Shown piece after piece: positions 4,505-58,057 of a stretch of 64,000 bases of DNA. The stretch is from Eledone cirrhosa (Eukaryota). How positions within the stretch are numbered: the stretch's first letter is position 1; each line of letters opens with the position of its first letter. The translations under genes were made by a program, and so were the position numbers. The stretch is from positions 14,074,001 to 14,138,000 of the forward strand of contig OZ024761.1 of the NCBI GenBank assembly GCA_964016885.1. The letters run 5' to 3'. The notes beneath the pieces were generated by a model that did not search any database, had not been told where the DNA came from, and saw nothing but the letters and a program-made list of their open reading frames with translations.

Positions 4505-5160
4505 ACCAATAGCAAACCTATTCTTTAAAGCTTTGGACAGCTCTTTCCCTAGTCAACATAAATACCATTCTATTTTTAATAGACACTATTAAATTATCTT
4601 ATTCTACAACTATGAATATGGCCCAAAACATTGCTAAAATAAACAGTAAAATTCTAAAGCAGAATCAGCATAATGATTTTAATAATAGTGTTAATATAAA
4701 TAATAATAAATTAAAATGTAATTGTAGAAATAAACCTGATTGCCCTCTGCAAAATAATTGTTTGGACAGTAATTTGGTGTATAAATGCACCGTAAAAACT
4801 GATAACAACACATACAACTACATAGGAGCGACTTCCTCTACATTTAAGGCTAGATTTGCGAATCATAAATGCTCATTTTCGAATTCTAATAGGAAATCAT
4901 CGATTTCTTTATCACAGCTTATATGGTCATTAAAAGACAAAAATTTAAAATACTCGATCTTTTGGACAAAACTTTGTAATAGTGGAGTTTATCTCAACTC
5001 AAGTATATCAAGTAACTGCGCTCTCTGTAAAATGGAGACCCTATTGATAATTAATAATTATGAAAACTTAATTAACAAAAAAAGTGAATTATTCTCAAAC
5101 CGCCTTCATAAAGCTTTGTCTACATTCCAAGCTTCCCATAAGGTCAGGAAAAAACAGTAA
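4505..5160 (+). pseudogene. PLE RT-thumb/linker plus GIY-YIG endonuclease, frameshifted near 4585
   Basis: FPSQHKYHSIFNRH/IKLSYS..., CNCRNKPDCPLQNNCL, LVYKC...NYIGATSSTFKARFANHKCSF, LSQLIWSLK and CALCKME are typical of the PLE endonuclease region. Confidence 0.88.
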
Positions 5161-6771: not shown

Positions 6772-6884
6772 TATATATATATAAATAAATGAAGTATTTC
6801 CGTCAGAAAGGTACAGGAAAAAAGAGTGCGCTATGTAGGCTACAGTGCTTATTAGTTAAGTAATAAACAACATAAGATAATTAT

Positions 6885-6945
6885 TTCATTTACCAGTGGT
6901 TTCTTGAAGACAGATGTTGTGTCTGTCTTCAGTCGTCAGATTTAA
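6885..6945 (-). ncRNA. Hammerhead core (family B), left arm of fold-back; stem I degenerate
   Basis: Minus strand: CTGACGA c tgaagacaga/tctgtcttca a GAAA ccactgg TA aatgaa. Confidence 0.55.
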
Positions 6946-6965
6946 TAAAAATACCATGTTTTTTA

Positions 6966-7020
6966 TTCATTCTGACGACTGAAGACACACAATATCTTCA
7001 AGAAACCACTGGTAAATGAA
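6966..7020 (+). ncRNA. Type I hammerhead ribozyme (family B); predicted GUA cleavage after 7014
   Basis: ttcatt CTGACGA c tgaaga-loop-tcttca a GAAA ccactgg TA aatgaa; stems I and II pair, stem III is near-palindromic. Confidence 0.8.
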
Positions 7021-7411
7021 ATAATTATCTTATGTTGTTTATTACTTAACTATATATATATATATATATATATGTGGTTGTGCATGTGTATGTGCATATA
7101 TATATATGCATATATATGGATTGCCTAGTTTCACACTTCCTTGCTGAAAGACATCCCGATCCCATTTAACAACACTTAGATGCACCTGCTCATCCAACAT
7201 ACCAATTCTTTCGTTAGTCGTAGAATATAAGAAGGAATCGGGATAATATTCAACCACTCTCAGACGTGAATCCACATGTTAAAACATATATCTGAGCAGC
7301 TTCCGATTCCAGAGTCAGATTCGATCATTAATAGACCGTACCTCGAGCTGATAGACAGTGAAACATATGTAATATGATGCAACACTGATTCCTTGTTCCC
7401 TTATATATTAA

Positions 7412-13193: not shown

Positions 13194-13381
13194 TATACTT
13201 GGGGAGGGTCATATTGTTATAATATTGCCAGAAATAATAATAAAAGACACTCACTGTTTGGTTTGGATTGGTTTTGAAGATATAAAAGATACAGAAGCAA
13301 AAACCAATCCAAACCAAACAGTGAGTGTGTTTTATTATTATTTCTGGCAATATTATGACAATATGACCCTCCCCAAATATA
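13194..13381. repeat. Fold-back element, ~80-bp arms; same family as 19721-19892 and 36267-36564
   Basis: ggggagggtcatattg...ggattggtttt and its reverse complement. Confidence 0.85.
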
Positions 13382-17582: not shown

Positions 17583-17677
17583 TGTATAGAAGGAGCTTCT
17601 ACAGGACTAGTACTGTTTCATTCATGTATTGAGTACCTTACTTACTGTGGTTATCCCCGACTCAACCCGGGACCTAC

Positions 17678-17737
<60 letters not shown>

Positions 17738-18351
17738 TGATGAGCAGAACAAACAAACATTAAACAATCCTTTAAAAAAATTAAAAAATGATTTAAATAT
17801 CTACCTAATGGAAACCGCTGGTAATAACATTATGAACAGGTAGATATTTAAATCATTTTTTAATTTATTTAAAGGATTGTTTAATGTTTGTTTGTTCTGC
17901 TCATCAATTTTTATAGTTCTGGTATCTCGAATTAGTACCATAGAACAACAATTATATTATAGACACCCTATATATCTCTATGGGTACTTAGTACTCAGTG
18001 AGATATTTACCTCATTTTTATATATATATATATATACTCATGATAATCACCAACAGGTCCTTCCTGTTCCTGTAACCATGCCCATTCCGAGCTGAGGATC
18101 CGCTAAGGTGAAACAATTGTTCTTGGTATGGTGAACTAACCATTGTGTAACCACTTCGATATATATATATAAACCGCAGAGCAAGTATTTATTAAACAGA
18201 TTAAAGTTTAAGCAAAGAATTGCTGCTTTCATCCTTCACGGGATCTTCTGAAACTCAGTCTCAGAAGATCCCGTTGAGGGTGAAAGCAGCAATTCTTTGC
18301 TTAAAGTTTAATCTGTTATTTTAATATATATATATATATATGGAGGCACAT

Positions 18352-18792: not shown

Positions 18793-19300
18793 TCATCATC
18801 ATCGTTTAACGTCTAATCTTCCACGCTAGTATGGGTTAGACGGGAGTTGTCCCACTGTAGGCAAGGTTGGTCGGGTGACAGTATCTCGCTCATATAGGAC
18901 TATCTGGCAGGTTTTCTACGGCTGGATGCCCGTCCCAACACCAACCACGTTTACAGTGTGGACTGGGAACTTTTTACCGTGTTACCTACACGGCCACATT
19001 ACAGCGTGGACTGTGTGTGTTTTTTTTGTCGTGACACCTACACGACCTCATTTATTTAGGACTGGATGTTGTGGTTCCGACATAACTTTATAGAGAAAAG
19101 GGGTGGTGTTGGCAGGAGTGGGAGCATGGAGTGGAGTAGTGGGTTGGGGTGTATGTTTGGTTTGGAGGGACCTACTGACTGTAGGTTAATTTTGCACGGA
19201 GGGAAGGCGGGTATGATATAACATAATTTCTGTCACCACCACCACCACCACCACCACCACCTTCTCTCTCTCTTCTCTTTCATGTCTGTGATGATCTCAG

Positions 19301-19411
19301 GGTGAAATGATTGATAGGATAGAATATAATGTTGAAGCAGCAGTCGACTATATAGAGACAGCAAAAATGGATACAAGGAAAGCTGTGAAATACCAAAGCA
19401 AAGCCAGACAA
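19301..19411 (+). CDS. STX1A: Syntaxin-1 exon, C-terminal SNARE helix and juxtamembrane: [37 protein letters not shown]
   Basis: Hallmark [12 protein letters not shown] and [10 protein letters not shown] motifs. Acceptor tctcAG, donor CAA|GTAAGA, 111 nt, phase 0/0. Confidence 0.97.
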
Positions 19412-19663: not shown

Positions 19664-20057
19664 CATCATCATACGTCCGCTTTTCCCTGCTTTCAAGGGT
19701 GGGACGATATATATATATATATGACCCTCCCAAAGTATAACACTATATCATCATCATCATCATCATCATCATCACCGTTTTACGTCCGTTCTTCCACGCT
19801 AGCACCCGTCTAACCCATGCTAGCGTGGAAGAACGGACGTAAAACGGTGATGATGATGATGATGATATATTGTTATACTTTGGGAGGGTCATGTTGCCAA
19901 TAACAAACAGTAATGCACTGGGTAATTGCTGGCCTTGTGCCTAAAGTAGAAACAATTATTTGTGGTATATAAATGTTGAGTGTTGGTGAAATAACTTACT
20001 GCCACTACAGGGATTGAAGATTCAAGACGTTAGCGGTATGTCGTATAACCAATCGCT

Positions 20058-21537: not shown

Positions 21538-21549
21538 TTAATATAGAAG

Positions 21550-21600
21550 AGATTCTACAGGACTAGAACTGTTTCATTTGTGAGAAATCATCAGGAATCT
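21550..21600 (-). ncRNA. Type I hammerhead ribozyme (family C)
   Basis: Minus strand: agattc CTGATGA tttctcacaaat GAAA cag-ttctagtc-ctg TA gaatct. Stems I and III are perfect, stem II is weak. Confidence 0.7.
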
Positions 21601-28787: not shown

Positions 28788-29007
28788 AAATGTAAGTTAT
28801 CGCCGTATTTTGACTAAAGAAATTAAAGAAATTATTTAGCCTGATCGTGGGGTTACGAACCCTCGGAGAAATGGAAAAAGATGAGTATTGACGTACATGG
28901 GAGTCAATACTCATCTTTTTCCATTTCTCCGAGGGTTCTTAACCCCACTATCAGGCTAAATAATTTCTTTAATTTCTTTAGTCAAAATATGGCGATAACT
29001 TACATTT
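28788..29007. repeat. Fold-back element, ~105-bp arms; same family as 36097-36252
   Basis: Arms 28788-28892 and 28903-29007 are reverse complements; shared tail gaaacagcgagtg. Confidence 0.88.
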
Positions 29008-30049
29008 ATATATATATATATATATTTCTAAAAAGTCTAAAGTCTGTCTTAAGCCAGAAGGCTCATTTGGCCGGTGCTTATCCCAGTTTCATGGCGTGAA
29101 GCGACTGAGAGTACAAGACTCCCCCCTGGACAGGACGCCAATCCATCGCAGGGTTAAACCTCCAGCTATTGCTGGTACTCATTTTCAGCTGAGTAAATTG
29201 GAGCAACGTGAAATAAAGTGTCTTGCTCAAGGAAACAAGACATCACCCTGTCCGAGAATTGAACTCACAACCTTTCAATTGTAAGCCTAATGCTCTAACC
29301 ACTAAACCATGCGCCTTCACTATATATATGTGTGTGTGCGTGTGTGTGTGTGCACATACATTGCACCGACAAGTAAAATCTTATTGAGGGGGGGGGGATC
29401 CTTTATTTGTTTCTAAGACATGACAACCTCCTATATATATATGTGTGTGTGTGTGTGAGTGAGACTCGGGTTCAATCTGGGGCAACCACAGTAAGTAAGA
29501 TACTCAATATATTAGTAGAGTGTAAACATCATGTTTAATATAGAAATGGCTTCTACAAGACTAGAACTGTTTCATTCAAAAGAAATCATCCTTCTTGATG
29601 ATTTATTTTGAATGAAACATATATATATATATGTGTGATGATGTGTATGTATAACTATTTCATTTACATTTTTATATATTTTCATTTTTATTCACTCACT
29701 TTCAATGTTGTTGCATGTATATATTTTTTATTATCGATGTTGTATGCTTATATATATACACACACAATATATACACCCACAATATATACTCACACAGCAC
29801 ACTCATCTACACATACACCTACATGCACACACACACACACATATACACAGTCTCTCTCTCTCTCATGCACACACACACACACATATATTATACAGTCTCT
29901 CTCTCACACACACACACACACACACGTCACACCATCTACTGACACATACATACAGATTTCCCCTCACACAAACACACGTATAATGCACACAGACCTCCAC
30001 TCATGCACACAGGCACATACACATATACAGATCCCCCCACTCACACACG

Positions 30050-31444: not shown

Positions 31445-31519
31445 AAAAAAATTTGCATATTCGTCGTTGTTGTATTGCTGATAGCTATTGTAATTGGTAT
31501 AATCGTTGGTACCACCTAG
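31445..31519 (+). CDS. STX1A: Syntaxin-1 terminal coding exon, tail anchor: KKICIFVVVVLLIAIVIGIIVGTT*
   Basis: Long T-rich tract plus ttttcAG acceptor. Phase 0 gives KK, about 20 hydrophobic residues and TAG, completing KARQKK-TMD as expected for syntaxin-1. Confidence 0.88.
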   Translation, partial: KKICIFVVVVLLIAIVIGIIVGTT

Positions 31520-31714
31520 ATTGTCTGTCTGTTTGTCCCCTTTTCACCACCACCACCATCTGCTGCAAGAGGACATCCAACCCCTTCACACACCAATGAT
31601 AGTTTTTACCTGCTGCTGCTGCTGCTGCTGCCACGACCACCACTTACCTGCACACTGATTACTTTCTAATGTCTGTCTGTCTGTTTGTCTGACTGTGTCA
31701 GACAGGTAACAGGC

Positions 31715-38814: not shown

Positions 38815-39459
38815 TAACGAAGGAAATGTGGTAAGGAACCAGGTGGACCATAACGCACCAAAGTGCTCAATACTTAGAGTAGTAAAGTGGCTAGTAGGAA
38901 CGAGTAGGACCCCGACGGCTGAGCTGAAGTCGTTTCGACGGCTAATTCTGGACTAAATGAATTTTGTGTCTCGTTTGTCCACCATATTGCTGAACCATGA
39001 GATTACTTCCTGGGTGTTGACCCATAGGCTAAGTCTGGCGTGTTGCTTAACTTTTGGTATAACACGGTCTAGGATTTTTTTACTGATTCTACCTATGTCG
39101 GACTTCATTGGGTTTATAAGCCTGATAGAAGGTTTACTGTCGAAATCGGATTTGTGGTCCTTCAGTGTGAAGTAGGGTGTCCGAGGGTCTAAGGGTTCCG
39201 TGCGGTCGGCGACCCCGAGGCTGGAGGGAATATGTTATCCATCTCAATTTAGGTCCTCGATGCATGAGTGGTTAGCCTTTTTATAGGTGGAGTTTAGGCT
39301 GCTCCTGATCAGTGTGTGGTATCTGCCGGGGCTGACGAAGTAGAGGTTACCAGTTTTATCCGAGTGCACCATGATGTCATTGGTGTTATCATACTCCATT
39401 TAATCCAGAATTAGCCGTCGAAACGGCTTGAGCTCAGCCGTCGGGGTCCTACTCGTTCC

Positions 39460-39461
<2 letters not shown>
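38815..39461 (-). mobile_element. Penelope-like element fragment: RT N-terminal pseudogene (39400-38955) between inverted repeats (38895-38959 and 39397-39461)
   Basis: Minus strand: SDKTGNLY..TYKKAN..YFTLKDHKSDFDSKPSIRLINPMKSDIGRISKKILDR..WVNTQEVISWF. Arms carry a hammerhead 3' half, GAAA cggc..gccg TC. Same family as 57862-58057. Confidence 0.85.
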
Positions 39462-39496
<35 letters not shown>

Positions 39497-39561
39497 ATAT
39501 ATATCTATGTGTGTATATATATATATATATGTATGTATGTATATATGTATATATATATATG

Positions 39562-39608
<47 letters not shown>

Positions 39609-39669
39609 GTATATATGTATATATATATATGTATGTATGTATGTATATATGTATATATATATATGTATG

Positions 39670-39729
<60 letters not shown>

Positions 39730-39753
39730 TATATGTATATATATATATGTATG

Positions 39754-39813
<60 letters not shown>

Positions 39814-39881
39814 TATATATATATATTTGTATATATATATATATTTGTATATATATATATATTTGTATATATATATATATT

Positions 39882-39930
<49 letters not shown>

Positions 39931-40234
39931 ATATTTATGTATATATATATATTTATATATATATATATATGTATGTATATATATATATATATTGTATATA
40001 TATATATTATATGTATATATATATATGTGTGTGTATATATATATACATATATATATATGGGTGTATATATATATGTATATATGTATATATATGTATATAT
40101 ATATATGTATATATATATATGTATATATATATATGTTATATATATATGTATATATATATATATGTATATATATGTATATATATATATTGTATATATATAT
40201 ATTTGTATATATATGTGTATATATATGTGTATAT

Positions 40235-40274
<40 letters not shown>

Positions 40275-40482
40275 GTATATATATATATGTGTATATATAT
40301 ATATGTGTATATATATGTGTATATATATATATATATATGTGTATATATATGTGTATATATATATACATATATATATATATATGTGTGTATATATATGTGT
40401 ATATATATGTGTATATATATATATATATGTATGTATATATATATATGTATGTATATATATATATGTATGTATTATATGTATG

Positions 40483-40535
<53 letters not shown>

Positions 40536-40618
40536 GTATATATATATGTATATATATATATATGTATATATATATGTATATATATATATATGTATATATA
40601 TATATGTATATATATATG

Positions 40619-40725
<107 letters not shown>

Positions 40726-41030
40726 GTATATAATGTATATATATATGTATATATATATATATGTATATGTATATAATGTATATATATATGTATATATATA
40801 TATGTATATATGTATATATATATGTATATATATATATGTATATATATATATGTATATATATATATGTATATATATATATATGTATATATATATATGTATA
40901 TATATATATATGTATATATATATATGTATATATATATATATGTATATATATATATGTATATATATATATATGTATATATATATATGTATATATAGTATAT
41001 ATATATGTATATATATATATATATAGTATT

Positions 41031-41081
<51 letters not shown>

Positions 41082-41217
41082 GTATATATGTAATATATAT
41101 ATATATGTATATATATGTATATATATGTATATATGTATATATGTATATATATATATGTATATATGTATGTATATATATGTATATATATATATATGTATAT
41201 ATATATATGTATATATG

Positions 41218-41250
<33 letters not shown>

Positions 41251-41279
41251 GTATATATATATATGTATATATATATATG

Positions 41280-41310
<31 letters not shown>

Positions 41311-41408
41311 GTATATATGTATATATATATGTATATATATATATGTATATATATATATATTTATATGTATATATATATGTATATATATATATCTATATAT
41401 ATATATTG

Positions 41409-41439
<31 letters not shown>

Positions 41440-41660
41440 TATATATATATGTATATATATATATGTATATATGTATATATATGTATATGTATGTATATAT
41501 ATGTATATATATATGTATATATATGTATATATTTATATATGTATATATATGTATATATATATATGTATATATATGTATATATATATATGTATATATATGT
41601 ATATATATGTATATATATATATATGTATATATATGTATATATATGTATATATATATATAG

Positions 41661-41755
<95 letters not shown>

Positions 41756-41848
41756 GTATATGTATATATATTATATTATATATATATGTATATATATATA
41801 TATGTATATATATGTATATATATATGTATATATATATGTATATATATG

Positions 41849-41879
<31 letters not shown>

Positions 41880-41908
41880 TGTATATATATGTATATGATA
41901 TATATATG

Positions 41909-41984
<76 letters not shown>

Positions 41985-42010
41985 GTATATATGTATATAT
42001 ATATATATAG

Positions 42011-42050
<40 letters not shown>

Positions 42051-42131
42051 TGTATATATATTATATATATATGTATATATGTATATATATATATGGTGTA
42101 TATGTGTGTATATATATATATATATGTATTT

Positions 42132-42165
<34 letters not shown>

Positions 42166-42249
42166 ATGTGTATATATATATATATGTATATATATGTGTA
42201 TATATATATATATATGTATATATATGTGGTATATATATATATATGTATA

Positions 42250-42290
<41 letters not shown>

Positions 42291-42509
42291 GTGTATATAG
42301 ATATATATATATATATGTATATATATGTGTATATATATATATATGTATATATATGTGTATATTTATATATATATGTATAATATATGTATATGTGTATATA
42401 TTATGTATATATGTATATATATGTGTATATATATATGTATATATATATATATGTGTATATGTGTATATATATATGTATATATTTATATGTATATATGTGT
42501 ATATATATA

Positions 42510-42540
<31 letters not shown>

Positions 42541-43253
42541 GTATATATATATATGTATATATATATAAATATGTATATTATATGTATATATATATATGTG
42601 TATTTATGTATATATGATATGTTATATATATATGTGTATATATGGTATATATATATATATATTGTAATATATGTATATATATATATAATATATATATTGT
42701 GTATATATGTATATATATATGTGTATATATGTATATATATATATATGATGTATATATGTATATATATATATATGTGTATATATGTATATATATATATGTG
42801 TATATATGTATATATATATATGTGTATATATGTATATAAATATATATATGTTTATATATGTATATATATATATATATATGTGTATATATGTATATGTATA
42901 TATATATATACATAATATATACATATATATACATATACATACATATATATATAAATATATATATATTACATATATATATATATATTACATATATATATAT
43001 ATTATATATTTACATATATATATATATATATATACATTTACATATATATATATACATATATAATATATATGTATATATAGTATATATATACTATATGTAT
43101 ATATATGTATATATATATATGTATATATATATATATGATTATATATATATATGTATATATATATATGTATATATATATATATGTATATATATATGTATAT
43201 ATATATATATGTATATATATATATGTATATATATATATGTGTATATATATATG

Positions 43254-43302
<49 letters not shown>

Positions 43303-43504
43303 GTATATATATAAGTATATATATATGTATATATATTATATGTATATATATATATGTATATATATATATAATGTATATATATATATGTATATATATAAAT
43401 ATGTATATATATATATATATATGTCATATATATATATACGTATGTATATATATATATATATGTATATATATATGTATATATATATATATATGTATATGTA
43501 TAGG

Positions 43505-43580
<76 letters not shown>

Positions 43581-43679
43581 ATATATATATGTATTACATA
43601 TGTATATACATTATATATATATATATTATATATATAGTATATATATATATGTTATATTATATATATATATATATATGTG

Positions 43680-43745
<66 letters not shown>

Positions 43746-43763
43746 TATATGTACATATATATG

Positions 43764-43816
<53 letters not shown>

Positions 43817-44195
43817 GTATATAATATATGTATATATGTATATATGTATATATATATATACGTATATATATATATATGTATATATATATGTAATTATATA
43901 TATATATGTATATATACTATATATATGTTATATATATATATATATGTATATATATATGTATATATATATATATATGTATATATATAATGTATATTATATA
44001 TATATATATGTATATATATGTATATATAAGTATATATATATAAGTATATATATATATATGTATATATATATGTATATATATATATATGTATATATATATA
44101 TGTATATGTATATATAATATGTATATGTATATATATATATGTATTATATAAGATATATATATATGTATATATATATATATATGTATATATATATG

Positions 44196-44231
<36 letters not shown>

Positions 44232-44283
44232 TGTATATATATAATATATGTATACTATATATATATGTATATATATATATATG

Positions 44284-44332
<49 letters not shown>

Positions 44333-44341
44333 GTATATATG

Positions 44342-44376
<35 letters not shown>

Positions 44377-44405
44377 CTATATATATATATATATATGTAT
44401 ATGTG

Positions 44406-44438
<33 letters not shown>

Positions 44439-44451
44439 TATATGTATGTAA

Positions 44452-44483
<32 letters not shown>

Positions 44484-44510
44484 GTATATATTATATATAT
44501 ATAGTATATG

Positions 44511-44567
<57 letters not shown>

Positions 44568-44731
44568 GTTATAAATATAATGATAATGTATATATATATA
44601 TATATGTATATATATAATATGTATATATATATATATATGTATATATTATATATGTGTATCTATATATATATATGTATATATATATGTGTATATATATATG
44701 TATATATATATATGTATATATTATATATATG

Positions 44732-44832
<101 letters not shown>

Positions 44833-44834
44833 GT

Positions 44835-44865
<31 letters not shown>

Positions 44866-45023
44866 GTATATATATAATATATGTATATATATGTATGTAT
44901 GTATATATATATGTATATATATATGTATATATATGTATGTATATGTATATATAATATATGTATATATATTATTGTATATATATATATATGTAGATATATA
45001 TATATATGTAATATATATATTTG

Positions 45024-45105
<82 letters not shown>

Positions 45106-45122
45106 TGTATATATTATAAATG

Positions 45123-45154
<32 letters not shown>

Positions 45155-45296
45155 GTATATATATATGTATATGTATATATATATATGTATATATATATAT
45201 ATTTGTATATATATATATATATATAATATATGTATATATATATATACATATATATATACATATATATATATATGTATATATATGTATATATGTATA

Positions 45297-45496
45297 NNNN
45301 NNNNNNNNNNNNNNNNNNNNNNNNNNNNNNNNNNNNNNNNNNNNNNNNNNNNNNNNNNNNNNNNNNNNNNNNNNNNNNNNNNNNNNNNNNNNNNNNNNNN
45401 NNNNNNNNNNNNNNNNNNNNNNNNNNNNNNNNNNNNNNNNNNNNNNNNNNNNNNNNNNNNNNNNNNNNNNNNNNNNNNNNNNNNNNNNNNNNNNNN
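45297..45496. other. Assembly gap (200 N)
   Basis: Run of n. Confidence 1.
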
Positions 45497-45528
45497 TATA
45501 TATATATATATATATGTATATGTATATG

Positions 45529-45564
<36 letters not shown>

Positions 45565-45575
45565 TGTATATGTAT

Positions 45576-45743
<168 letters not shown>

Positions 45744-45772
45744 GTATATATATATATGTATATATATATATG

Positions 45773-45855
<83 letters not shown>

Positions 45856-45996
45856 GTATATATGTATATATATATATGTATATATATATATGTATATATA
45901 TATATATGTATATATATATATGTATATATATATATGTATATATATATATATGTATATATATATATGTATATATATATATATGTATATATATATATG

Positions 45997-46041
<45 letters not shown>

Positions 46042-46523
46042 GTATATATATATATGTATGTATATATATGTATATATATATATGTATATATATGTATATA
46101 TATGTATGTATATATATATATGTATATATATATATGTATATATATGTATATATATATATGTATATATATATGTATATATATATATGTATATATATATATG
46201 TATATATATATATGTATATATATATATGTATATATATATATGTATATATATATATGTATATATATATATGTATATATATATGTATATATATATATGTATA
46301 TATATATATGTATATATATATATGTATATATATATATGTATATGTATATATGTATATGTATATGTATATATGTATATGTATATATGTATATGTATATATG
46401 TATATATATATATGTATATATATATATGTATATATGTATATATGTATATGTATATATGTATATATATAATGTATATATATATATATGTATATATATATAT
46501 GTATATATGTATATATATATATG

Positions 46524-46766
<243 letters not shown>

Positions 46767-46768
46767 GT

Positions 46769-47750
46769 ACACTAAGGTAGCACAGGCAATCAAAAACCCG
46801 GCTGACGCTGCCCTCTTACAGCAGGATCTGGATGCCATATACAGATGGGCGGAAGAAAACAACATGCAGTTTAATGCTGGCAAATTCCAAGCCCTACAAT
46901 ACAAACCTGCAAACACAAACACAAATATAGCGGAACACAGCTACACAGGACCAGGAGGGACCGATATCCCCGTGTCAAAATCGATACGAGACCTGGGCAT
47001 AGACATGAGCGATGATGCATCTTTTTCTTCACACATCATGAAGGTGGCGACAGCATGTAGACGATTCGCTGGCTGGATCTTGAGGACTTTCCTTACAAGA
47101 GATCGAGACACCATGTTGACACTGTGGAGGACTTTTGTCCTAAGCCGCCTGGACTACTGCTCCCAGCTGTGGTCACCCCATAGTGTCAAACTAACCACAG
47201 AGCTTGAGGCAATCCAGCGAAGCTACACCAAGAGGATTGCCAAGATGAGGGAGACAAGCTACTGGGAGAGGCTGAAGGAACTGAACCTCTACTCCTTGGA
47301 GCGAAGACGGGAGAGATACGCAGTGATCTACATGTGGAAAATCCTGGAGGGACTAGCACCAAACTTTGGCATTGGGAGCTGGACCAACCGTCGAACAGGA
47401 CGTCACTGTGTGGTGCCAAAGGTCCCGTCTTCCACATCTAGAATAAGGAGCAGGTATTGCAATAGCCTGGGATTCAAGGGCCCTCAACTCTTCAACAGGC
47501 TGCCGAGGCATCTGCGAGACTTGCATGACGTGGAGGTGGATGTCTTTAAGAAACATCTCGACACCTTGTTATCCAGGATCCCGGATGAGCCCACAGCAAG
47601 ACACGAGGGAAACCTAAGGGCAGCAGCAACAAACTCCCTCCTACACCAGTGGCCAACCGATACAGGCTGGAGATAAAATGTGTAGCAACAAGGGCGGTGC
47701 CCCAGCATGGCCTCAGCCGGATGGCTGAAACAGGTAAAAGAGTAAAAGAG
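46769..47750 (+). mobile_element. 5'-truncated CR1/L2-group LINE; RT thumb and C-terminus open 46771-47676, plus 3' UTR
   Basis: [78 protein letters not shown]; ~300 codons with no stop. Confidence 0.92.
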
Positions 47751-48185: not shown

Positions 48186-48640
48186 CAAAGCAGCTCTTAA
48201 GAGTCAATGGCTATCCAAAATCACCGGGAGAGATGACCCCTTAGCCTTTGTCAAGGCAGAATTCTAGGAGAAGGAAAACTCTGATATAACACCCGCAACC
48301 CTGATGGTATCCAATGATGTTGACTTGTTCTTCTTTTTGGTAAATATCATCTTGGTTAAGAGAGTGGGACTGGCTTTGTGCAGTGCCTTTGCTCACTATA
48401 AAAGCTTCACGGCACAGGCATTGCTTTATATCTGGAGATCTCTCTCTCTGCACTTGTCGTCACATGGTACCATGGGCCCAGCACTATGTGTCAGTAATTG
48501 TCACAAGTGTAGTGTTTGTACCAGAGTTTTCAAGTCGCTGGCTGGACTAAAAAGTCACACTCGTTCAGCGCATCGGTAGGGGTTCTCCTACATGGATATA
48601 AAGTAGTGGCCGTACTCGAAAACGAGTTGGCAGCCACCAT
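48186..48640 (+). mobile_element. Bipartite RTE-like non-autonomous element, 5'-truncated
   Basis: Same family as 8085-8706. Confidence 0.85.
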
Positions 48641-49051
48641 GTATGTATATGTATATGTATATATATATGTATATGTGTGTATGTATATGTATATATATAT
48701 GTATATATATATTTGTATATATATATATGTGTATATATATGTGTGCGTATATATATGTATATATATGTATACATATGTATATATATGTATATGTGTGTAT
48801 ATGTGTATATATATGTATGTGTATGTATATATGTGTGTGTGTGTATATATGTGTATAAATATATATGTATATATATGTATATGTATATATATATATATGT
48901 ATGTGTATATATATGTATATATATATATATATGTGTATGTATATGTGTATATATATATATATATGTATATATATATGTATGTATATATATGTGTATATAT
49001 ATATATGTATGTATATATATATGTATATATATATATATATGTATATATATG

Positions 49052-49090
<39 letters not shown>

Positions 49091-49230
49091 GTATATATAT
49101 ATATGTGTATATATATATGTATGTATATATATGTGTATGTGTATGTGTATATATGTATGTATGTATGTGTATATGTATATATATGTGTATATGTATATGT
49201 ATATATATATGTATGTATATATATATATAT

Positions 49231-49432
49231 ATATAGATGAGATTCTGCAGGACTGGGGCTGTTTCATTCATTGGAAATCATCGGAAATCATCAGGGATTC
49301 CTGATGATTTCTGGTGGGTGGAACAGTTCTGGTCCTGTGGAGTCTCATCTATATTAAAACTTTTATACTCTGCTATGTATTGAGTACCTTACTTACTGTG
49401 GTTACCTCCGATTCAACCCGGAATAACTTACC
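49231..49432 (+). mobile_element. Family C hammerhead fold-back element with A-to-G hypermutated arms
   Basis: Homologous to 21541-21600, 17585-17680 and 29461-29620. Core reads CTGATGA...GGAA cag..ctg TG. Confidence 0.85.
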
Positions 49433-49471
<39 letters not shown>

Positions 49472-49482
49472 GTATGTATATG

Positions 49483-49516
<34 letters not shown>

Positions 49517-49882
49517 TGTATATATATATGTGTATATATATGTATGTATATGTATATATGTATATATATATATGTATAAATTGAAACAAAATGAAAACGA
49601 AATTTCATTTCTCACTCTTAGTATGGCACTTACTTAAATGTAAGTATGCATGTATACGTACATACATATATGTATACAGACGTACAGTAGCATGCACATA
49701 TATATATATATATATATACATATATACATACATATGCATACAGGTACACATACATATATGCACGTATCAGTTTAGCGGCGCTAACGTCGCTTTGTTCGTT
49801 TGTAAACAAACTGAACAGCCTGAATTTATGCCATACGGTGTTAAGGCAACCACGTCACCTTTTTGTTCAACACTGACACAGG

Positions 49883-49927
49883 AACGATGTACTAGTTTCA
49901 AGCTTGTTAGCTATCATCAGCACCGTT
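49883..49927 (-). ncRNA. Minimal type I hammerhead ribozyme (family D)
   Basis: Minus strand: aacggtg CTGATGA t agct aaca agct t GAAA ctag TA catcgtt. Confidence 0.85.
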
Positions 49928-50391
49928 TACCCATCTGCCAGATAGTTGAACGTTCGAAAGTATATACTTTCCTTATGAAAATTAACGGCTGAGCAGCCTA
50001 ATTTGCATATTGAGTGAGTTAAATCGGTCAGGCATACCGAAAACGATAAATTGAAACAAAATGAAAACGAAATTTCATTTCTCACTCTTAGTATGGCACT
50101 TACTTAAATGTAAGTATGCATGTATACGTACATACATATATGTATACAGACGTACAGTAGCATGCACATATATATATATATATATACATATATACATACA
50201 TATGCATACAGGTACACATACATATATGCACATATCAGTTTAGCGGCGCTAACGTCGCTTTGTTCGTTTGTAAACAAACTGAACAGCCTGAATTTATGCC
50301 ATACGGTGTTAAGGCAACCACGTCACCTTTTTGTTCAACACTGACACAGGAACGATGTACTAGTTTCAAGCTTGTTAGCTATCATATAGTA

Positions 50392-50436
50392 AACGGTGCT
50401 GATGATAGCTAACAAGCTTGAAACTAGTACATCGTT
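50392..50436 (+). ncRNA. Minimal type I hammerhead ribozyme (family D); predicted GUA cleavage after 50429
   Basis: aacggtg CTGATGA tagctaacaagctt GAAA ctag TA catcgtt; palindromic stem III ACTAGT. Confidence 0.85.
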
Positions 50437-50520
50437 CCTGTGTCAGTGTTGAACAAAAAGGTGACGTGGTTGCCTTAACACCGTATGGCATAAATTCAGG
50501 CTGTTCAGTTTGTTTACAAA

Positions 50521-50700
50521 CGGTAGGGGCCTCCTAGCCCCACACTGTGGGTGTGGTTGGTGTTGGGAGGGGCATCCAGCTGTGGGAGGCCTGCCGGGGG
50601 GTCCTGTGCGAGCGGGACAGTCACTCTTGCCTCGGGTGGGACTGCCCCCGTCCGGGCCCATGCGGGCGTGGAGCGCGGACGTTGAACGTTGATGATGATG
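50521..50700 (+). mobile_element. RTE-related retroposon tail, A-to-G hypermutated copy
   Basis: Colinear with 7506-7680 but with about 30 A replaced by G. Confidence 0.9.
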
Positions 50701-50876
50701 TATATATATATGTGTGTGTATGTGTGTGTGTATGTGTGTATATGTGTGTATGTATGTATATGTATATATGTATGTGTATGTGTATGTGTGTGTATATGTA
50801 TATGTATGTATATATGTATATATATGTATGTATATGTATATATGTATATATATATGTATGTATATATGTATATATG

Positions 50877-50917
<41 letters not shown>

Positions 50918-50974
50918 GTATGTATATGTATGTATATATATATATATATATATGTATGTATATGTATATATATG

Positions 50975-51008
<34 letters not shown>

Positions 51009-51163
51009 TATGTATGTGTATATATACGTCTGTGTATATATATATATATATATGTATGTGTATATATATGTCTGTATGTATATATATATATATATGTATG
51101 TGTATGTATATGTCTGTATGTATATGTATATGTATGTGTATATATGTGTCTGTATATATATAT

Positions 51164-51716
51164 ATGGTCGGGTCGTTGGCGACTAAACTGGCAACCCCAC
51201 CAAGGTTTCTTGGTGAGGAGGGTGACTTTGGACATCCTGCAGGACTAAAAACAAAACCTGTCAAAGGGCAAAGGAGCTCTTAAGAGTCAATGGCCATCCA
51301 AAATCACCGGGAGAGATGACCCCTTAGCCTTTGTCAAGGCAGAATTCTAGGAGAAGGAAAACTCTGATATAACACCTGCAACCCTGATGGTATCCAATGA
51401 TGTTGACTTGTTCTTCTTTTTGGTAAATATCATCTTGGTTAAGAGAGTGGGACTGGCTTTGTGCAGTGCCTTTGCTCACTATAAAAGCTTCACGGCACAG
51501 GCATTGCTTTATATCTGGAGATCTCTGCACTTGTCGTCACATGGTACCATGGGCCCAGCACTATGTGTCAATAATTGTCACAGGTGTAGTGTTTGTACCA
51601 GAGTTTTCAGGTGGCTGGCTGGACTAAAAAGTCACACTCGTTCAGCGCATCGGTGGGGGTTCTCCTACATGGATATAAAGTAGTGGCCGTACTCGAAAAC
51701 GAGTTGGCAGCCACCA
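51164..51716 (+). mobile_element. Bipartite RTE-like non-autonomous element
   Basis: Same family as 8085-8706. Confidence 0.88.
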
Positions 51717-51932
51717 TATATATATATATGTATGTATATATATATATGTATATATGTATATATATATGTATATATGTATGTATATATATGTATATATATA
51801 TATGTATATATATATATGTATATATATATATGTATATATATATATATGTATATATGTATATATATATGTATATATGTATGTATATATATGTATATATATA
51901 TATGTATATATATATATGTATATATATATATG

Positions 51933-51979
<47 letters not shown>

Positions 51980-53134
51980 GTATATATATATATGTATATA
52001 TATGTATATATATATGTATATATATATATGTATATATATATATGTATATATATATATGTATATATATATGTATATATATATGTATATATATATATGTATA
52101 TATATATATGTATATATATATATGTATATATGTATATATATATATGTATATATATATATGTATATATATATATGTGTATATGTATATATGTATATGTATA
52201 TATGTATATGTATATATGTATATATATATATGTATATATATATATGTATATATATATATGTATATATATATATGTATATGTATATATGTATATGTATATA
52301 TGTATGTGTATATATGTATATATATATATGTATATGTATATATGTATATGTATATATGTATATGTATATATGTGTATATGTATATATGTATATATATATG
52401 TATATATATATGTATATATATATATATGTATATATGTATATGTATATATGTATATATGTATATGTATATATGTATATATGTATATGTATATATGTATATA
52501 TATATATGTATATATGTATATGTATATATGTATATGTATATATATATATGTATATATATATATGTATATATGTATATGTATATATGTATATGTATATGTA
52601 TATATGTATATGTATATATGTATATGTATATGTATATATGTATATATGTATATGTGTATATGTATATATGTATATGTATATATGTATATATGTATATATA
52701 TATATGTATATATATATATGTATATATATATATGTATATGTATATATGTATATGTATATATATATATGTATATGTATATATGTATATATATATATGTATA
52801 TATATATATGTATATGTATATATATATATGTATATATATATATGTATATATATATATGTATATATGTATATGTATATATGTATATATGTATATGTATATA
52901 TGTATATATGTATATATGTATATGTATATATATATATATGTATATGTATATATGTATATATATATATGTATATATATATATATGTATATATGTATATGTA
53001 TATATGTATATATATATATGTATATATATATATGTATATGTATATATGTATATGTATATATATATGTATATATATATATGTTTATATATATATGTATATA
53101 TATATGTATATATATATATGTATATATATATATG

Positions 53135-53181
<47 letters not shown>

Positions 53182-53554
53182 GTATATATATATGTATGTA
53201 TATATATATGTATATATATATGTATATATATATATATGTATATATATATGTATATATATATATATGTATATATATATGTATATATATATATGTATATATA
53301 TATATGTATATATATATGTATATATATATATGTATATATATATGTATATATATATATGTATATATATATATGTATATATATATATGTATATATATATATG
53401 TATATATGTATATATATATATATGTATATATATATATGTATATATATATATGTATATATATATATGTATATATATATATGTATATATATATGTATATATA
53501 TATGTATATATATATGTATATATATATGTATATATATATGTATATATATATATG

Positions 53555-53585
<31 letters not shown>

Positions 53586-53699
53586 GTATATATGTATATG
53601 TATATATATATATGTATATATATATATGTATATATATATATGTATATATATATATGTATATATATATATGTATATATATATATGTATATATATATATGT

Positions 53700-53737
<38 letters not shown>

Positions 53738-53854
53738 GTATGTATATATGTATATATATATGTATATATATATGTATATATATGTGTATATATATATATG
53801 TATATATATATATGTATATATATATATGTATATATATATATGTATATATATATG

Positions 53855-53899
<45 letters not shown>

Positions 53900-55766
53900 G
53901 TATATATATATATGTATATATGTATATATATATATGTATATATATATATGTATATATATATGTATATATATATGTATATATATGTGTATGTATATGTGTA
54001 TGTATATGTGTATGTATATATATATGTATATGTGTATGTATATATATATGTGTATGTATATATGTATGTATATATATATGTATGTATATATGTATGTATA
54101 TATGTATGTATATATGTATGTATGTAAGTATGTATATATGTATGTATATATGTATGTATATATGTATGTATATATGTATGTATATATGTATATATATGTA
54201 TATATGTGTATATATGTATATATGTATATATATGTATATATATGTGTATATGTGTATATATATGTATATATATATATATATGTGTATATATGTGTATATA
54301 TGTATATATATGTGTATATATGTGTATATATATGTGTATATATGTATATATATGTGTCTATATATATATGTATAATGAAAAATTGAACAGGGACAGAACA
54401 GAGAGGCAGTACGATAAATGTTTATTAAATTCACGCTCAGGAGAGTGGGGTGTATATATATATGTATATATGTATATATATGTGTATATATATGTATATA
54501 TATGTGTATATATATGTATATATGTGTATATATATGTATATATATATATGTGTATATATATATGTGTATATATATGTATATATATATATATGTATATATA
54601 TATATGTGTATATATATGTATATATATATATGTGTATATATATGTATATATATATGTGTATATATATGTCTATATGTCTATATGTCTATATATCTATATG
54701 TATCTATATGTATCTATATATATATGTGTGTATATATGTATATATATGTGTATATATGTGTATATATATGTGTATATATATGTGTATATATGTGTATATA
54801 TGTATATATATGTATATATATGTGTATATATGTGTATATATGTGTATATATGTGTATATATGTGTATATATGTATATATATGTATATATATGTGTATATA
54901 TGTGTATATATGTGTATATATGTGTATATATGTGTATATATGTGTATATATGTGTATATATGTGTATATATGTGTATATATGTGTATATATGTGTATATA
55001 TGTGTATATATGTATATATATGTATATATATGTGTATATATGTGTATATATGTATATATATGTGTATATATGTGTATATATGTGTATATATGTGTATATA
55101 TGTATATATATATGTATATATATATGTATATATATATGTATATATATGTGTATATATGTGTATATATATGTATATATATGTATATATATGTATATATATA
55201 TGTATATATATGTATATATATATATATCTGTATGTATATATATATATATATCTGTATGTATATATGTATATATATCTATCTCTATATATATTCATATATA
55301 TAGATATATACACATACATATACACGCACATATATACGTATATATATATATATTCATACGTACACCTGTACACATACACACACACACACACATACATATA
55401 ATAGAATGAATGTGAAGATTACAATTTTCAAATAATAATAATTACTATAATTTATATAAGTGGGTAAAATGTTTTATTTGAATAAAATCAAGAACATGAA
55501 TAAAAAGAATCCCAAATAAATTGTCTTCGGTTCGGTTTAAACCAGTTTTTCTTTGAAACCAGTTTGATATTTCTATTTTTTTGCTTTATTTGTATTTTCA
55601 TTTCATTAAACTTAATGATATTAATAATTATTTCTTCAACAGTAACAATTTCTCCTTGTTTTATGCCAGAAAAGAACTGATAACAGTTTGATGGCTTTTA
55701 CTAAGACTAGCAAATTAGCCTAATAAAAAGTAAAATATGTATGTATGTATATATATATATATATAC

Positions 55767-57861: not shown

Positions 57862-58057
57862 ATAACAAAGGAATTGTGGCAAGGAACCAGATGGACCATA
57901 ACGCACCAGAGTACTCAATACTTAGGGTAGTAGAGTGGGAAATCGGAAAAAGTATGACACCGACGGCAGAGCTCAAGCTGTTTCGACGGCTAATTCTGGA
58001 CTCCAGAAATAGCCGTCGAAACGGCTTGAGCTCTGCCGTCGGGGTCATACTTTTTCC
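57862..58057 (-). mobile_element. PLE-derived fold-back, arms 57945-58000 and 58002-58057
   Basis: Homologous to the termini of 38815-39461. Confidence 0.8.

What the first reader, a model, noticed from the sequence alone, without database searches (positions are those of the whole stretch)
49231..49364. Hairpin with A-to-G changes in both arms on the same strand, knocking out its hammerhead ribozyme
Seen: the left arm (49231-49289) and right arm (49296-49364) differ at 15 positions, and 14 of these place G opposite T (6 Gs in the left arm, 8 in the right). Unmutated relatives (21541-21600, 17590-17622, 29550-29590: ttctacaggactagaactgtttcatt) show A was ancestral, so A:U pairs became G:U on one RNA strand. 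The hammerhead GAAA became GGAA and the GUA triplet became GUG. Established: hammerheads need the GAAA core and an NUH triplet where H is not G. Inference: the fold-back already existed in the RNA, was edited as dsRNA and was then retroposed. Editing may disable self-cleavage of these RNAs. This is a second case only ~1.2 kb from the first.
Basis: partly seen in the sequence, partly recalled or inferred. Interest (0 to 1): 0.88.

Follow-up and report, generated by a model that had tools for sequence, protein, structure and literature searches.

The report
RNA-editing scars written into genome
This hairpin is a piece of transposon RNA that was heavily A-to-I edited and then copied back into the chromosome of a probable cephalopod; other copies in the genome show the same thing, so RNA edits can become DNA mutations, while the loss of the ribozyme looks like a side effect.

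Summary
Observation confirmed. The 59-bp fold-back (49231-49354) has 14 G:T pairs, 6 Gs left and 8 right. Against an unedited sister copy all 14 are A>G; the unpaired tail has 0 of 21. Background is 6 of 712. The hairpin is a Penelope-like pLTR fold-back with a minimal type I hammerhead. It rode inside a larger RNA (X'-TA-hairpin-TA-Y-TA-X) that was retroposed at least three times with different edits (window, C403, C13). Edits avoid a 5' G (p=4e-5), hit the (UA)n spacer, and spare a later-inserted perfect hairpin next door (0 of 72 As). Elsewhere, edited hammerheads sit in new, perfectly mirrored fold-backs, so edited RNA was reverse-transcribed by two routes. Best reading: ADAR hyper-editing fixed in DNA by retroposition (0.88). 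The hammerhead knockout is real in sequence but incidental: the ribozyme is already locked in the duplex, 7 of 16 edited loci keep the core, and about 18,000 family matches exist, nearly all unedited. The exact allele was not found in 4 public runs, so read-level proof is open. I found no prior report in 10 literature searches.

The parts
48186..48640 (+). X', 5'-truncated copy of a ~580-nt non-autonomous element with a LINE-type zinc-finger 3' end; probable 5' end of the retroposed unit
   Evidence: Rare variant with 22 matches genome-wide; the same sub-variant lies upstream of the hairpin in C403, and a more truncated X lies at that place in C13; C2H2-like reading frame seen by eye
48641..49230 (+). 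(TA)n array with G only on the + strand
   Evidence: 598 nt, 85 G and 3 C; editing here not separable from slippage
49231..49289 (+). Left arm of the fold-back (antisense to the hammerhead), 6 A>G
49290..49295 (+). Loop of the fold-back
   Evidence: the same loop type also occurs in unedited copies with unrelated flanks
49296..49354 (+). Right arm, 8 A>G; holds a minimal type I hammerhead at 49296-49344 (stem I 49296-49300 with 49340-49344, core 49301-49307, GAAA>GGAA 49320-49323, loop III palindrome broken at 49331, GUA>GUG 49337-49339)
   Evidence: no Rfam hammerhead match
49355..49432 (+). Unpaired pLTR tail, 0 of 21 As changed; internal negative control
   Evidence: in copy L036 this tail runs on into a long ORF
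49433..49575 (+). (TA)n array
49576..50522 (-). Later insertion with Penelope-type layout (partial tandem plus perfect 121-bp fold-back at 50265-50385/50402-50522, 0 of 72 As changed); stands where the sisters have a second hairpin
   Evidence: orientation and element class inferred from layout
50524..50697 (+). Y, 3' end of a LINE (RTE-type by recall), hyper-edited on the same strand: 28 of 48 As in 50530-50697, plus 4 at 50525-50528
50698..51166 (+). (TA)n spacer between Y and X, also carrying A>G changes
   Evidence: C403 and C13 spacers align without gaps over 461 nt and all 49 differences are A/G; window vs C3 19 A>G, 5 G>A in an ambiguous gapped alignment
51167..51714 (+). X, whose 3' end is the inferred priming site for reverse transcription of the whole unit
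   Evidence: 100% identical to C403 and 99.6% to C3 over 548 nt; sequence after its end differs among copies
51715..54376 (+). Long G-skewed (TA)n tail or target array

Best explanation
1) A Penelope-like element left a short pLTR fold-back (hammerhead plus tail) in a (TA)n array. Such fold-backs form as perfect DNA hairpins at insertion (shown: many unedited perfect copies). 2) Neighbouring TA-targeting elements piled up to give a composite X'-TA-hairpin1-TA-hairpin2-Y-TA-X (shown). 3) The composite was transcribed on the + strand (inferred). 4) ADAR deaminated As in every duplex: both arms of the hairpins, self-pairing (UA)n, and Y paired with an inverted Y in cis or in trans (enzyme inferred from the signature). 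5) A LINE reverse transcriptase primed at the 3' end of X, read I as G and inserted 5'-truncated copies in the germline: window, C403 and C13, each with its own edits (pattern shown, enzyme inferred). 6) A further element later inserted into the window copy (inferred from its unedited hairpin). The hammerhead lost its core as a bystander. Elsewhere, edited fold-back RNAs were re-copied by the Penelope machinery, giving new fold-backs whose second arm mirrors the edits as T>C.
For: Only A>G against an unedited sister: 14 of 14 changes in the hairpin, 28 of 29 in Y. Confined to duplex: tail 0 of 21 As in both window and C403, and no tail A>G in any of 16 edited loci (several have little or no tail). 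Neighbour bias with sites as units, 7 edited Y copies: 5' G 0.17 (11 sites) vs U 0.70, A 0.68, C 0.38, p=4e-5. 5' G depletion is the published ADAR mark (PMC2873906 passages). Sisters are edited differently (hairpin: 7 shared, 7 and 4 private), and unrelated lineages share sites just as much, so these are hot spots on separate molecules. The C403/C13 spacer has 49 of 49 A/G differences. The adjacent later hairpin has 0 of 72. Double A>G pattern 14 matches, double G>A control 1, family 17,976. 7 of 16 edited loci have mirrored T>C arms, 3 have G:T in both arms, 6 have no second arm. In 6 of 6 lineages with an X or Penelope 3' end downstream, it lies on the A>G strand. An ADAR2-like gene is present (E 3e-102).
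Against: The exact window allele was not seen in 4 public runs (3 samples, none shown to be the assembled individual); no piece spanned the stretch. The direct donor with X' upstream and no edits was not found; C3 lacks X' and has private changes, so it is a sister or another allele. The pairing partner of Y is only suggested: inverted Y copies lie 4 and 9 kb upstream at C3 (94% and 97% identical), but Y is common everywhere. 3 of the 14 hairpin edits follow a G, and within the hairpin alone the 5' bias is weak (3 of 13 after G vs 6 of 10 after T). The 3' G preference is not significant (p=0.10). No target-site duplication can be read in the TA arrays. Edited copies were found by patterns that select for edits, so their counts are lower bounds, not rates.
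Confidence: 0.88

Rival explanations
1. Sequencing or assembly artefact: errors in a strong hairpin, or edited cDNA reads built into the assembly.
For: The exact allele is absent from 4 public runs; the region is full of long TA arrays, and one sister lies on a 74-kb unplaced contig.
Against: A perfect 121-bp hairpin 900 nt away has no changes. Mirrored copies carry the edits as Watson-Crick pairs in both arms, which needs a DNA step after editing. A later insertion interrupts the edited unit. An old, diverged Y copy also carries the cluster (L103: 32 A>G, 19 other changes). Run X1 holds a 100-nt contig at depth 22.7 with 6 of the 8 right-arm Gs, read from the tables.
Confidence: 0.04
2. Adenine deamination on DNA (cruciform DNA, the cDNA or second strand, or the DNA strand of an RNA:DNA hybrid) during or after integration.
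For: ADAR can act on DNA in hybrids in model substrates (review passage, PMC12925331). A DNA-deaminating ADAT is reported in amphioxus (PMC10354150, search listing only).
Against: Deamination of the cDNA strand would give T>C on the sense strand. The changes stop at the duplex edge. The neighbouring DNA hairpin and nearly all family copies are untouched. Y has no close inverted partner in the window (the inverted relatives are about 72-80% alike and over 20 kb away), so the duplex must have existed before truncation.
Confidence: 0.04
3. Context-dependent misincorporation by an error-prone retroelement reverse transcriptase while it copies structured RNA, with no inosine involved.
For: The changes are linked to retroposition; 3 of 14 hairpin edits sit after G, which ADAR disfavours.
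Against: The spectrum is pure A>G at up to 58% of As. The same scars come through two apparently unrelated routes (X-ended units and Penelope fold-backs). 5' G is depleted overall, and nearly all copies made by the same enzymes are clean.
Confidence: 0.03
4. Add-on to the best explanation: editing is used to switch off hammerhead self-cleavage, which favours retroposition of the RNA.
For: Four ribozyme features are hit in this copy (stem II, GAAA, loop III palindrome, GUA); C403 also has GGAA and GUG.
Against: The hammerhead cannot fold inside the 59-bp duplex (-4.7 vs -104.8 kcal/mol). In a pattern blind to the core, 7 of 16 loci keep GAAA and GUA, and 10 of 16 keep GUA. Such PLE hammerheads cleave poorly as monomers (PMC4209133 abstract). 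Unedited copies dominate.
Confidence: 0.08

Closest known systems
A-to-G hypermutated avian retroviruses (Rous-associated virus, avian leukosis virus; Felder 1994, Hajjar and Linial 1995; seen only as described in review PMC12925331)
   Same: ADAR-type A>G at up to about half of the As, in an inverted repeat, carried through reverse transcription
   Different: Here the substrates are endogenous non-LTR and Penelope-like RNAs plus co-transcribed flanks, the products are genomic copies in an invertebrate assembly, and the event recurs at many loci
APOBEC 'DNA-edited' retroelements in vertebrate genomes (Knisbacher and Levanon, PMC4866542 passages; Carmi 2011, citation only)
   Same: Strand-biased clusters of one substitution fixed in retrocopies and polarised by a consensus
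   Different: Those are G>A from C-to-U on cDNA of LTR elements and were absent from 19 invertebrates; these are A>G from RNA duplexes, limited to paired regions
Penelope-like pLTR hammerheads (Cervera and de la Pena, PMC4209133; Craig et al., PMC8557442)
   Same: Type I minimal hammerhead in the pLTR, inverted 5'-truncated copy, tail, microsatellite targeting
   Different: This copy was moved as cargo in an X-ended transcript and carries editing scars; I saw no mention of editing in the parts of these papers I read
LINE-mediated transduction of flanking sequence (own knowledge)
   Same: Variable 5' truncation, common 3' end at a LINE-type tail, different sequence beyond it
   Different: The cargo is a stack of other retroelements and microsatellites, and each transduced molecule is labelled by its own edit pattern
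Non-LTR retrozymes (bioRxiv 10.64898/2026.07.22.740005, part 1 of 5 read)
   Same: Non-coding, PLE-derived, type I hammerhead
   Different: No tandem array of hammerhead units; the hammerhead is sequestered and mutated

Membership tests
Type I minimal hammerhead (ancestral state) | CUGANGA and GAAA core, NUH triplet | tested here: met
   Unedited sister and many family copies match a structural descriptor
Type I minimal hammerhead (ancestral state) | Stems I-III can pair; palindrome in loop III | tested here: met
   Stem I 5-7 bp, with a two-sided change in 2 related-family copies (L037, L017); stem II 3 bp; stem III 4 bp; loop III holds CUAG
Type I minimal hammerhead (ancestral state) | Match to an Rfam hammerhead model | tested here: not met
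   No hammerhead family at E<=10 for the sister or the window copy, nor at gathering score in the window
Type I minimal hammerhead (ancestral state) | Self-cleavage | not testable with these tools
   Needs in vitro transcription
Type I minimal hammerhead (window copy) | Intact GAAA and H not G | tested here: not met
   GGAA at 49320-49323, GUG at 49337-49339
Penelope-like element pLTR fragment | Hammerhead in the repeat, inverted truncated copy, tail, microsatellite target | tested here: met
   features from PMC8557442 passages
Penelope-like element pLTR fragment | Linked ORF with PLE reverse transcriptase and GIY-YIG endonuclease | tested here: inconclusive
   The tail runs into an ORF in L036. 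Pfam gives no RT hit. Atlas neighbours are unnamed eukaryotic clusters, two with RVT_1 in 14-15% of members (a lead only). The N-terminal motif looks PLE-like by recall. Endonuclease and clade were not tested
ADAR A-to-I hyper-editing signature | Clustered A>G only, on one strand | tested here: met
ADAR A-to-I hyper-editing signature | Restricted to double-stranded RNA | tested here: met
   Hairpin 14 of 43 vs tail 0 of 21, Fisher p=0.003; for Y the partner is inferred only
ADAR A-to-I hyper-editing signature | 5' G depletion | tested here: met
   p=4e-5 with sites as units in Y; pooled 8 of 59 vs 62 of 132 after T or A
ADAR A-to-I hyper-editing signature | 3' G enrichment | tested here: inconclusive
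   0.61 vs 0.40-0.57, p=0.10
ADAR A-to-I hyper-editing signature | ADAR gene in the genome | tested here: met
   PF02137 at 4 loci; the C6 exon matches the ADAR2 deaminase domain, E 3e-102; dsRBDs not checked
ADAR A-to-I hyper-editing signature | Inosine in the RNA, germline expression | not testable with these tools
   No run on record as RNA was listed
LINE-mediated transduction | Common 3' end at a LINE-type tail, variable 5' truncation, different sites | tested here: met
   Window, C403, C13
LINE-mediated transduction | Target-site duplication | tested here: inconclusive
   Both ends lie in TA arrays
LINE-mediated transduction | Autonomous partner LINE identified | not tested
   A LINE-like 3' end resembling X was seen by eye at C1:71.33 Mb
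Non-LTR retrozyme | Tandem units each with a hammerhead | tested here: not met
   Single fold-back in a mixed composite
APOBEC DNA-edited retroelement | G>A on the sense strand | tested here: not met
   0 G>A vs 14 A>G against the sister

The most novel reading that the evidence does not exclude
In this probable coleoid cephalopod, germline ADAR editing plus retroposition is a recurrent, heritable mutational process. It writes A-to-I edits into DNA through both LINE and Penelope machinery, converts (TA)n arrays towards (TG)n and so helps create the strongly G-skewed microsatellites, seeds edited sub-lineages of retroelements, and could carry edits of host transcripts back to the genome. Edited retrocopies would then be a fossil record of germline editing.
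Probability: 0.55. Interest if true: 0.88.

Novelty: new variant of a known kind. Interest (0 to 1): 0.74.

Why it matters
RNA edits are normally taken to be non-heritable. A 2016 review says the role of ADAR editing in the evolution and mutational suppression of Alu elements had not been determined (PMC4982230 passage), and ADAR1 was reported not to edit L1 RNA in culture (PMC5224506 passage). Here single genomic copies appear to record the edit pattern of single RNA molecules, with an unedited sister as control and two reverse-transcription routes. That makes germline ADAR activity, its site preferences, and its share in retroelement and microsatellite evolution measurable from one assembly. 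If the host is a cephalopod, it bears on whether A>G substitutions at edited sites can arise directly from edited RNA. The process looks rare: 14 and 21 pattern matches among about 18,000 for this family.

Tried and rejected
Rfam: no match at gathering score in the window; the E-value scan was swamped by miRNA models on TA repeats; no hammerhead on the isolated arms. The 3' junction motif is not specific to the composite (973 matches). The loop sequence is not either: of 19 matches most are unedited copies with unrelated flanks. Nested editing over successive generations: shared sites exceed a uniform model (p=0.016 and 3e-4), but unrelated lineages share as many, so hot spots suffice. C403 as a haplotype duplicate of the window: rejected, no shared unique flanks. 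Edited syntaxin pre-mRNA copied back onto its own locus: rejected, the other hairpins in the window show no one-strand G:T excess and the unit recurs at other sites. Sequencing runs: no RNA holder listed; laying 4 of 20 listed runs did not recover the exact allele. Pfam found nothing for the LINE fragment, the 4513-5157 frame or the L036 frames. Control Y copies were picked by likeness to the edited query, so their 27 of 1317 A>G is inflated; the unbiased background is. The upstream-arm counts include misaligned flank and were replaced. Three look-ups of earlier findings gave nothing that bears on this. Carmi 2011 and Hajjar and Linial 1995 were not held. No supplements were read.

Full report
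Observation. The + strand of 49231-49354 folds into a 59-bp hairpin (z -13.3; the - strand folds much less well). Arm against arm there are 15 non-Watson-Crick positions: 14 G:T (6 Gs left, 8 right) and one A:C near the loop. A search of the own genome (3.0 Gb; the window is C22:14074001-14138000) returned close relatives. In the 30 loci fetched, all 14 Gs are A in the consensus. In 30 copies picked by a tail motif and not by editing, A>G stands at 6 of 712 As, lower than G>A (11 of 350) or C>T (20 of 517); 14 of 42 has P about 4e-19.

What the hairpin is. The right arm holds a type I hammerhead: in unedited copies a 5-7 bp stem I, CUGAUGA, a 3-bp stem II, GAAA, a 4-bp stem III with a CUAG palindrome in the loop, and GUA. 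Rfam does not score it. The arm is followed by a tail that, in copy L036, runs into a long ORF. Pfam is silent on that ORF and the Atlas gives only a weak RT lead, so the Penelope-like label rests on layout: hammerhead in the repeat, inverted truncated copy, tail and (TA)n target, as described in PMC8557442 (passages) and PMC4209133 (part 1 of 4). A 25-nt core pattern has 17,976 matches, and 99 of the first 100 listed are unedited. Fold-backs vary in loop and arm length and have unrelated flanks, so each forms at insertion as a near-perfect DNA hairpin.

The larger unit. The window copy shares loop, tail junction and flanks with C3:374.565 Mb (unedited) and C403 (edited differently). The unit is X'-TA-hairpin1-TA-hairpin2-Y-TA-X. 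Y is a LINE 3' end and X a ~580-nt non-autonomous element with a zinc-finger LINE-type 3' end; both class labels are from recall and inspection. A fourth member at C13:12.862 Mb lacks both hairpins. Against C3 the window has 14 A>G and nothing else in the hairpin, and 28 A>G plus one transversion in Y; C403 has 11 in hairpin 1, 16 in hairpin 2 and 16 in Y; C13 has 40 in Y against the consensus. X is identical in window and C403 over 548 nt, and the sequence beyond its 3' end differs. X' is a rare variant (22 matches) shared by window and C403 and cut at different 5' points. This is the pattern of repeated reverse transcription from the 3' end of X. C3 lacks X' and has private changes, so it is a sister or another allele of the donor, which I did not find.

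Why ADAR on RNA. (a) The changes stop at the duplex edge: 14 of 43 As in the hairpin, 0 of 21 in the tail (p=0.003). (b) With 60 A sites of Y as units over 7 edited copies, sites after G are edited at 0.17, after U 0.70, A 0.68, C 0.38 (p=4e-5); the 3' G excess is not significant (p=0.10). 5' G depletion is the published ADAR mark (PMC2873906 passages). In the hairpin alone the bias is weaker, with 3 of 14 edits after G. (c) The self-complementary TA spacer is hit too: C403 and C13 align without gaps over 461 nt and all 49 differences are A/G. (d) A later insertion in the window (49576-50522) ends in a perfect 121-bp hairpin that abuts edited Y and has 0 of 72 As changed, which argues against a local DNA mutator and against hairpin-specific read errors. 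(e) Y has no close inverted partner in the window; at C3 inverted Y copies lie 4 and 9 kb upstream (94% and 97% identical), which is suggestive only because Y is abundant. (f) The genome has an ADAR2-like gene. The syntaxin exon in the window is closest to PDB 1L4A S-syntaxin (36 of 38 identical), which I recall as squid, so the host is probably a coleoid cephalopod.

It recurs. A search with edited Y found 8 hyper-edited copies among 30 loci, 5 of them outside this lineage, for example C23 with 33 A>G and no other change and C1:71.3 Mb with 46 and none. Two patterns requiring two A>G in the hammerhead gave 14 and 21 matches; a double G>A control gave 1. Of the 16 loci, 3 have G:T in both arms like the window (window, C403, C3:162 Mb), 7 have the edits mirrored as T>C in a perfectly complementary second arm, and 6 have no second arm. 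A further pair (C1:278 Mb, C4:360 Mb) shares flanks and differs in its edits. The mirrored class means edited RNA was reverse-transcribed by the Penelope machinery and folded back afterwards, which cDNA contamination or read error cannot produce. In 6 of 6 lineages with an X or Penelope 3' end downstream, it lies on the A>G strand. These counts come from patterns that select for edits and are lower bounds.

The hammerhead knockout. GAAA>GGAA and GUA>GUG are real, and stem II and the loop III palindrome are also hit. But inside the fold-back the hammerhead fold is worth -4.7 kcal/mol against -104.8 for the duplex; 7 of 16 edited loci keep both GAAA and GUA; and unedited copies dominate the family. 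I read the loss as collateral damage.

Against, and open. No run on record as RNA was listed, and the best holder had 0.44 of the sampled words, about what the tail alone gives. Laying 4 of 20 runs did not recover the exact allele and no piece spanned the stretch. None is shown to be the assembled individual, and the near-absence of other differences among the sisters suggests young, possibly polymorphic insertions (inference). Run X1, of unrecorded kind, holds a 100-nt contig at depth 22.7 with 6 of the 8 right-arm Gs, and contigs that run across the left-arm G cluster at 93% likeness or more; I read this from the tables and cannot say whether it is RNA or DNA. No target-site duplication can be read, and inosine was not observed.

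Known or new. ADAR-type A>G hypermutation in an inverted repeat is known for two avian retroviruses (review passage, PMC12925331). G>A-edited LTR copies are known in vertebrate genomes and were absent from 19 invertebrates (PMC4866542 passages). A review calls ADAR's role in Alu evolution undetermined (PMC4982230), and L1 RNA was found unedited in culture (PMC5224506). A 2026 octopus repeat annotation has no occurrence of 'editing', 'ADAR' or 'hammerhead' (PMC13282606). Ten searches listed no paper whose title or abstract start reports genomic ADAR-edited non-LTR or Penelope retrocopies; the library lacks most subscription papers, including Carmi 2011. Verdict: new variant of a known kind; mechanism confidence 0.88; interest 0.74.

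Noticed in passing
window 19295-19411, 31445-31520, and about 9 kb beyond the window (L178, near 73089 in window numbering): A syntaxin SNARE exon and two candidate alternative transmembrane last exons on the + strand; the edited unit lies between the two, in sense orientation.
   Followed up: partly
window 39456-46773 and 51715-54376: Giant (TA)n arrays with GC skew near +1. They may reflect LINE tail units, slippage, or accumulated editing of (UA)n RNA; not separated here.
   Followed up: no
window 49576-50522: Element with partial tandem plus perfect 121-bp fold-back, joined to Y at a 5-nt shared sequence, standing where the sisters have hairpin 2; relatives in L009 and L131; family not identified.
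   Followed up: partly
L176-L177 (C1:71.322-71.330 Mb): A Y copy with 46 A>G sits between two near-identical inverted, partly tandem Y copies and is followed by two X elements; possibly a local re-insertion next to its own pairing partner.
   Followed up: partly
L173-L174 (C3:162.260-162.263 Mb): Independent X...X unit with a fold-back edited in both arms (11 A>G right, at least 9 left) and, by eye, an edited SINE-like tail and its inverted partner.
   Followed up: partly
L179 (C4:274.331-274.336 Mb): A 705-bp inverted pair, 99.7% identical and 5 kb apart, both copies carrying the same 8 A>G in the hammerhead region only.
   Followed up: partly
L186 (C2:198.18 Mb): Penelope-like 3' UTR with many apparent A>G changes upstream of the hammerhead, seen by eye.
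   Followed up: no
window 6865-7040, 13201-13374, 17741-17903, 18197-18315, 19756-19866, 28800-28995, 57953-58049: At least seven more near-perfect short fold-backs beside TA arrays, without one-strand G:T excess; some look like other Penelope-type families.
   Followed up: no
window 4513-5160: Reading frame with a Cys-rich linker and a motif recalled as GIY-YIG-like, as in Penelope endonucleases; no Pfam hit.
   Followed up: partly
L037 and L004 (flanks), L017: Related hammerhead families with a two-sided change in stem I; one has a different core N and loop III palindrome.
   Followed up: partly
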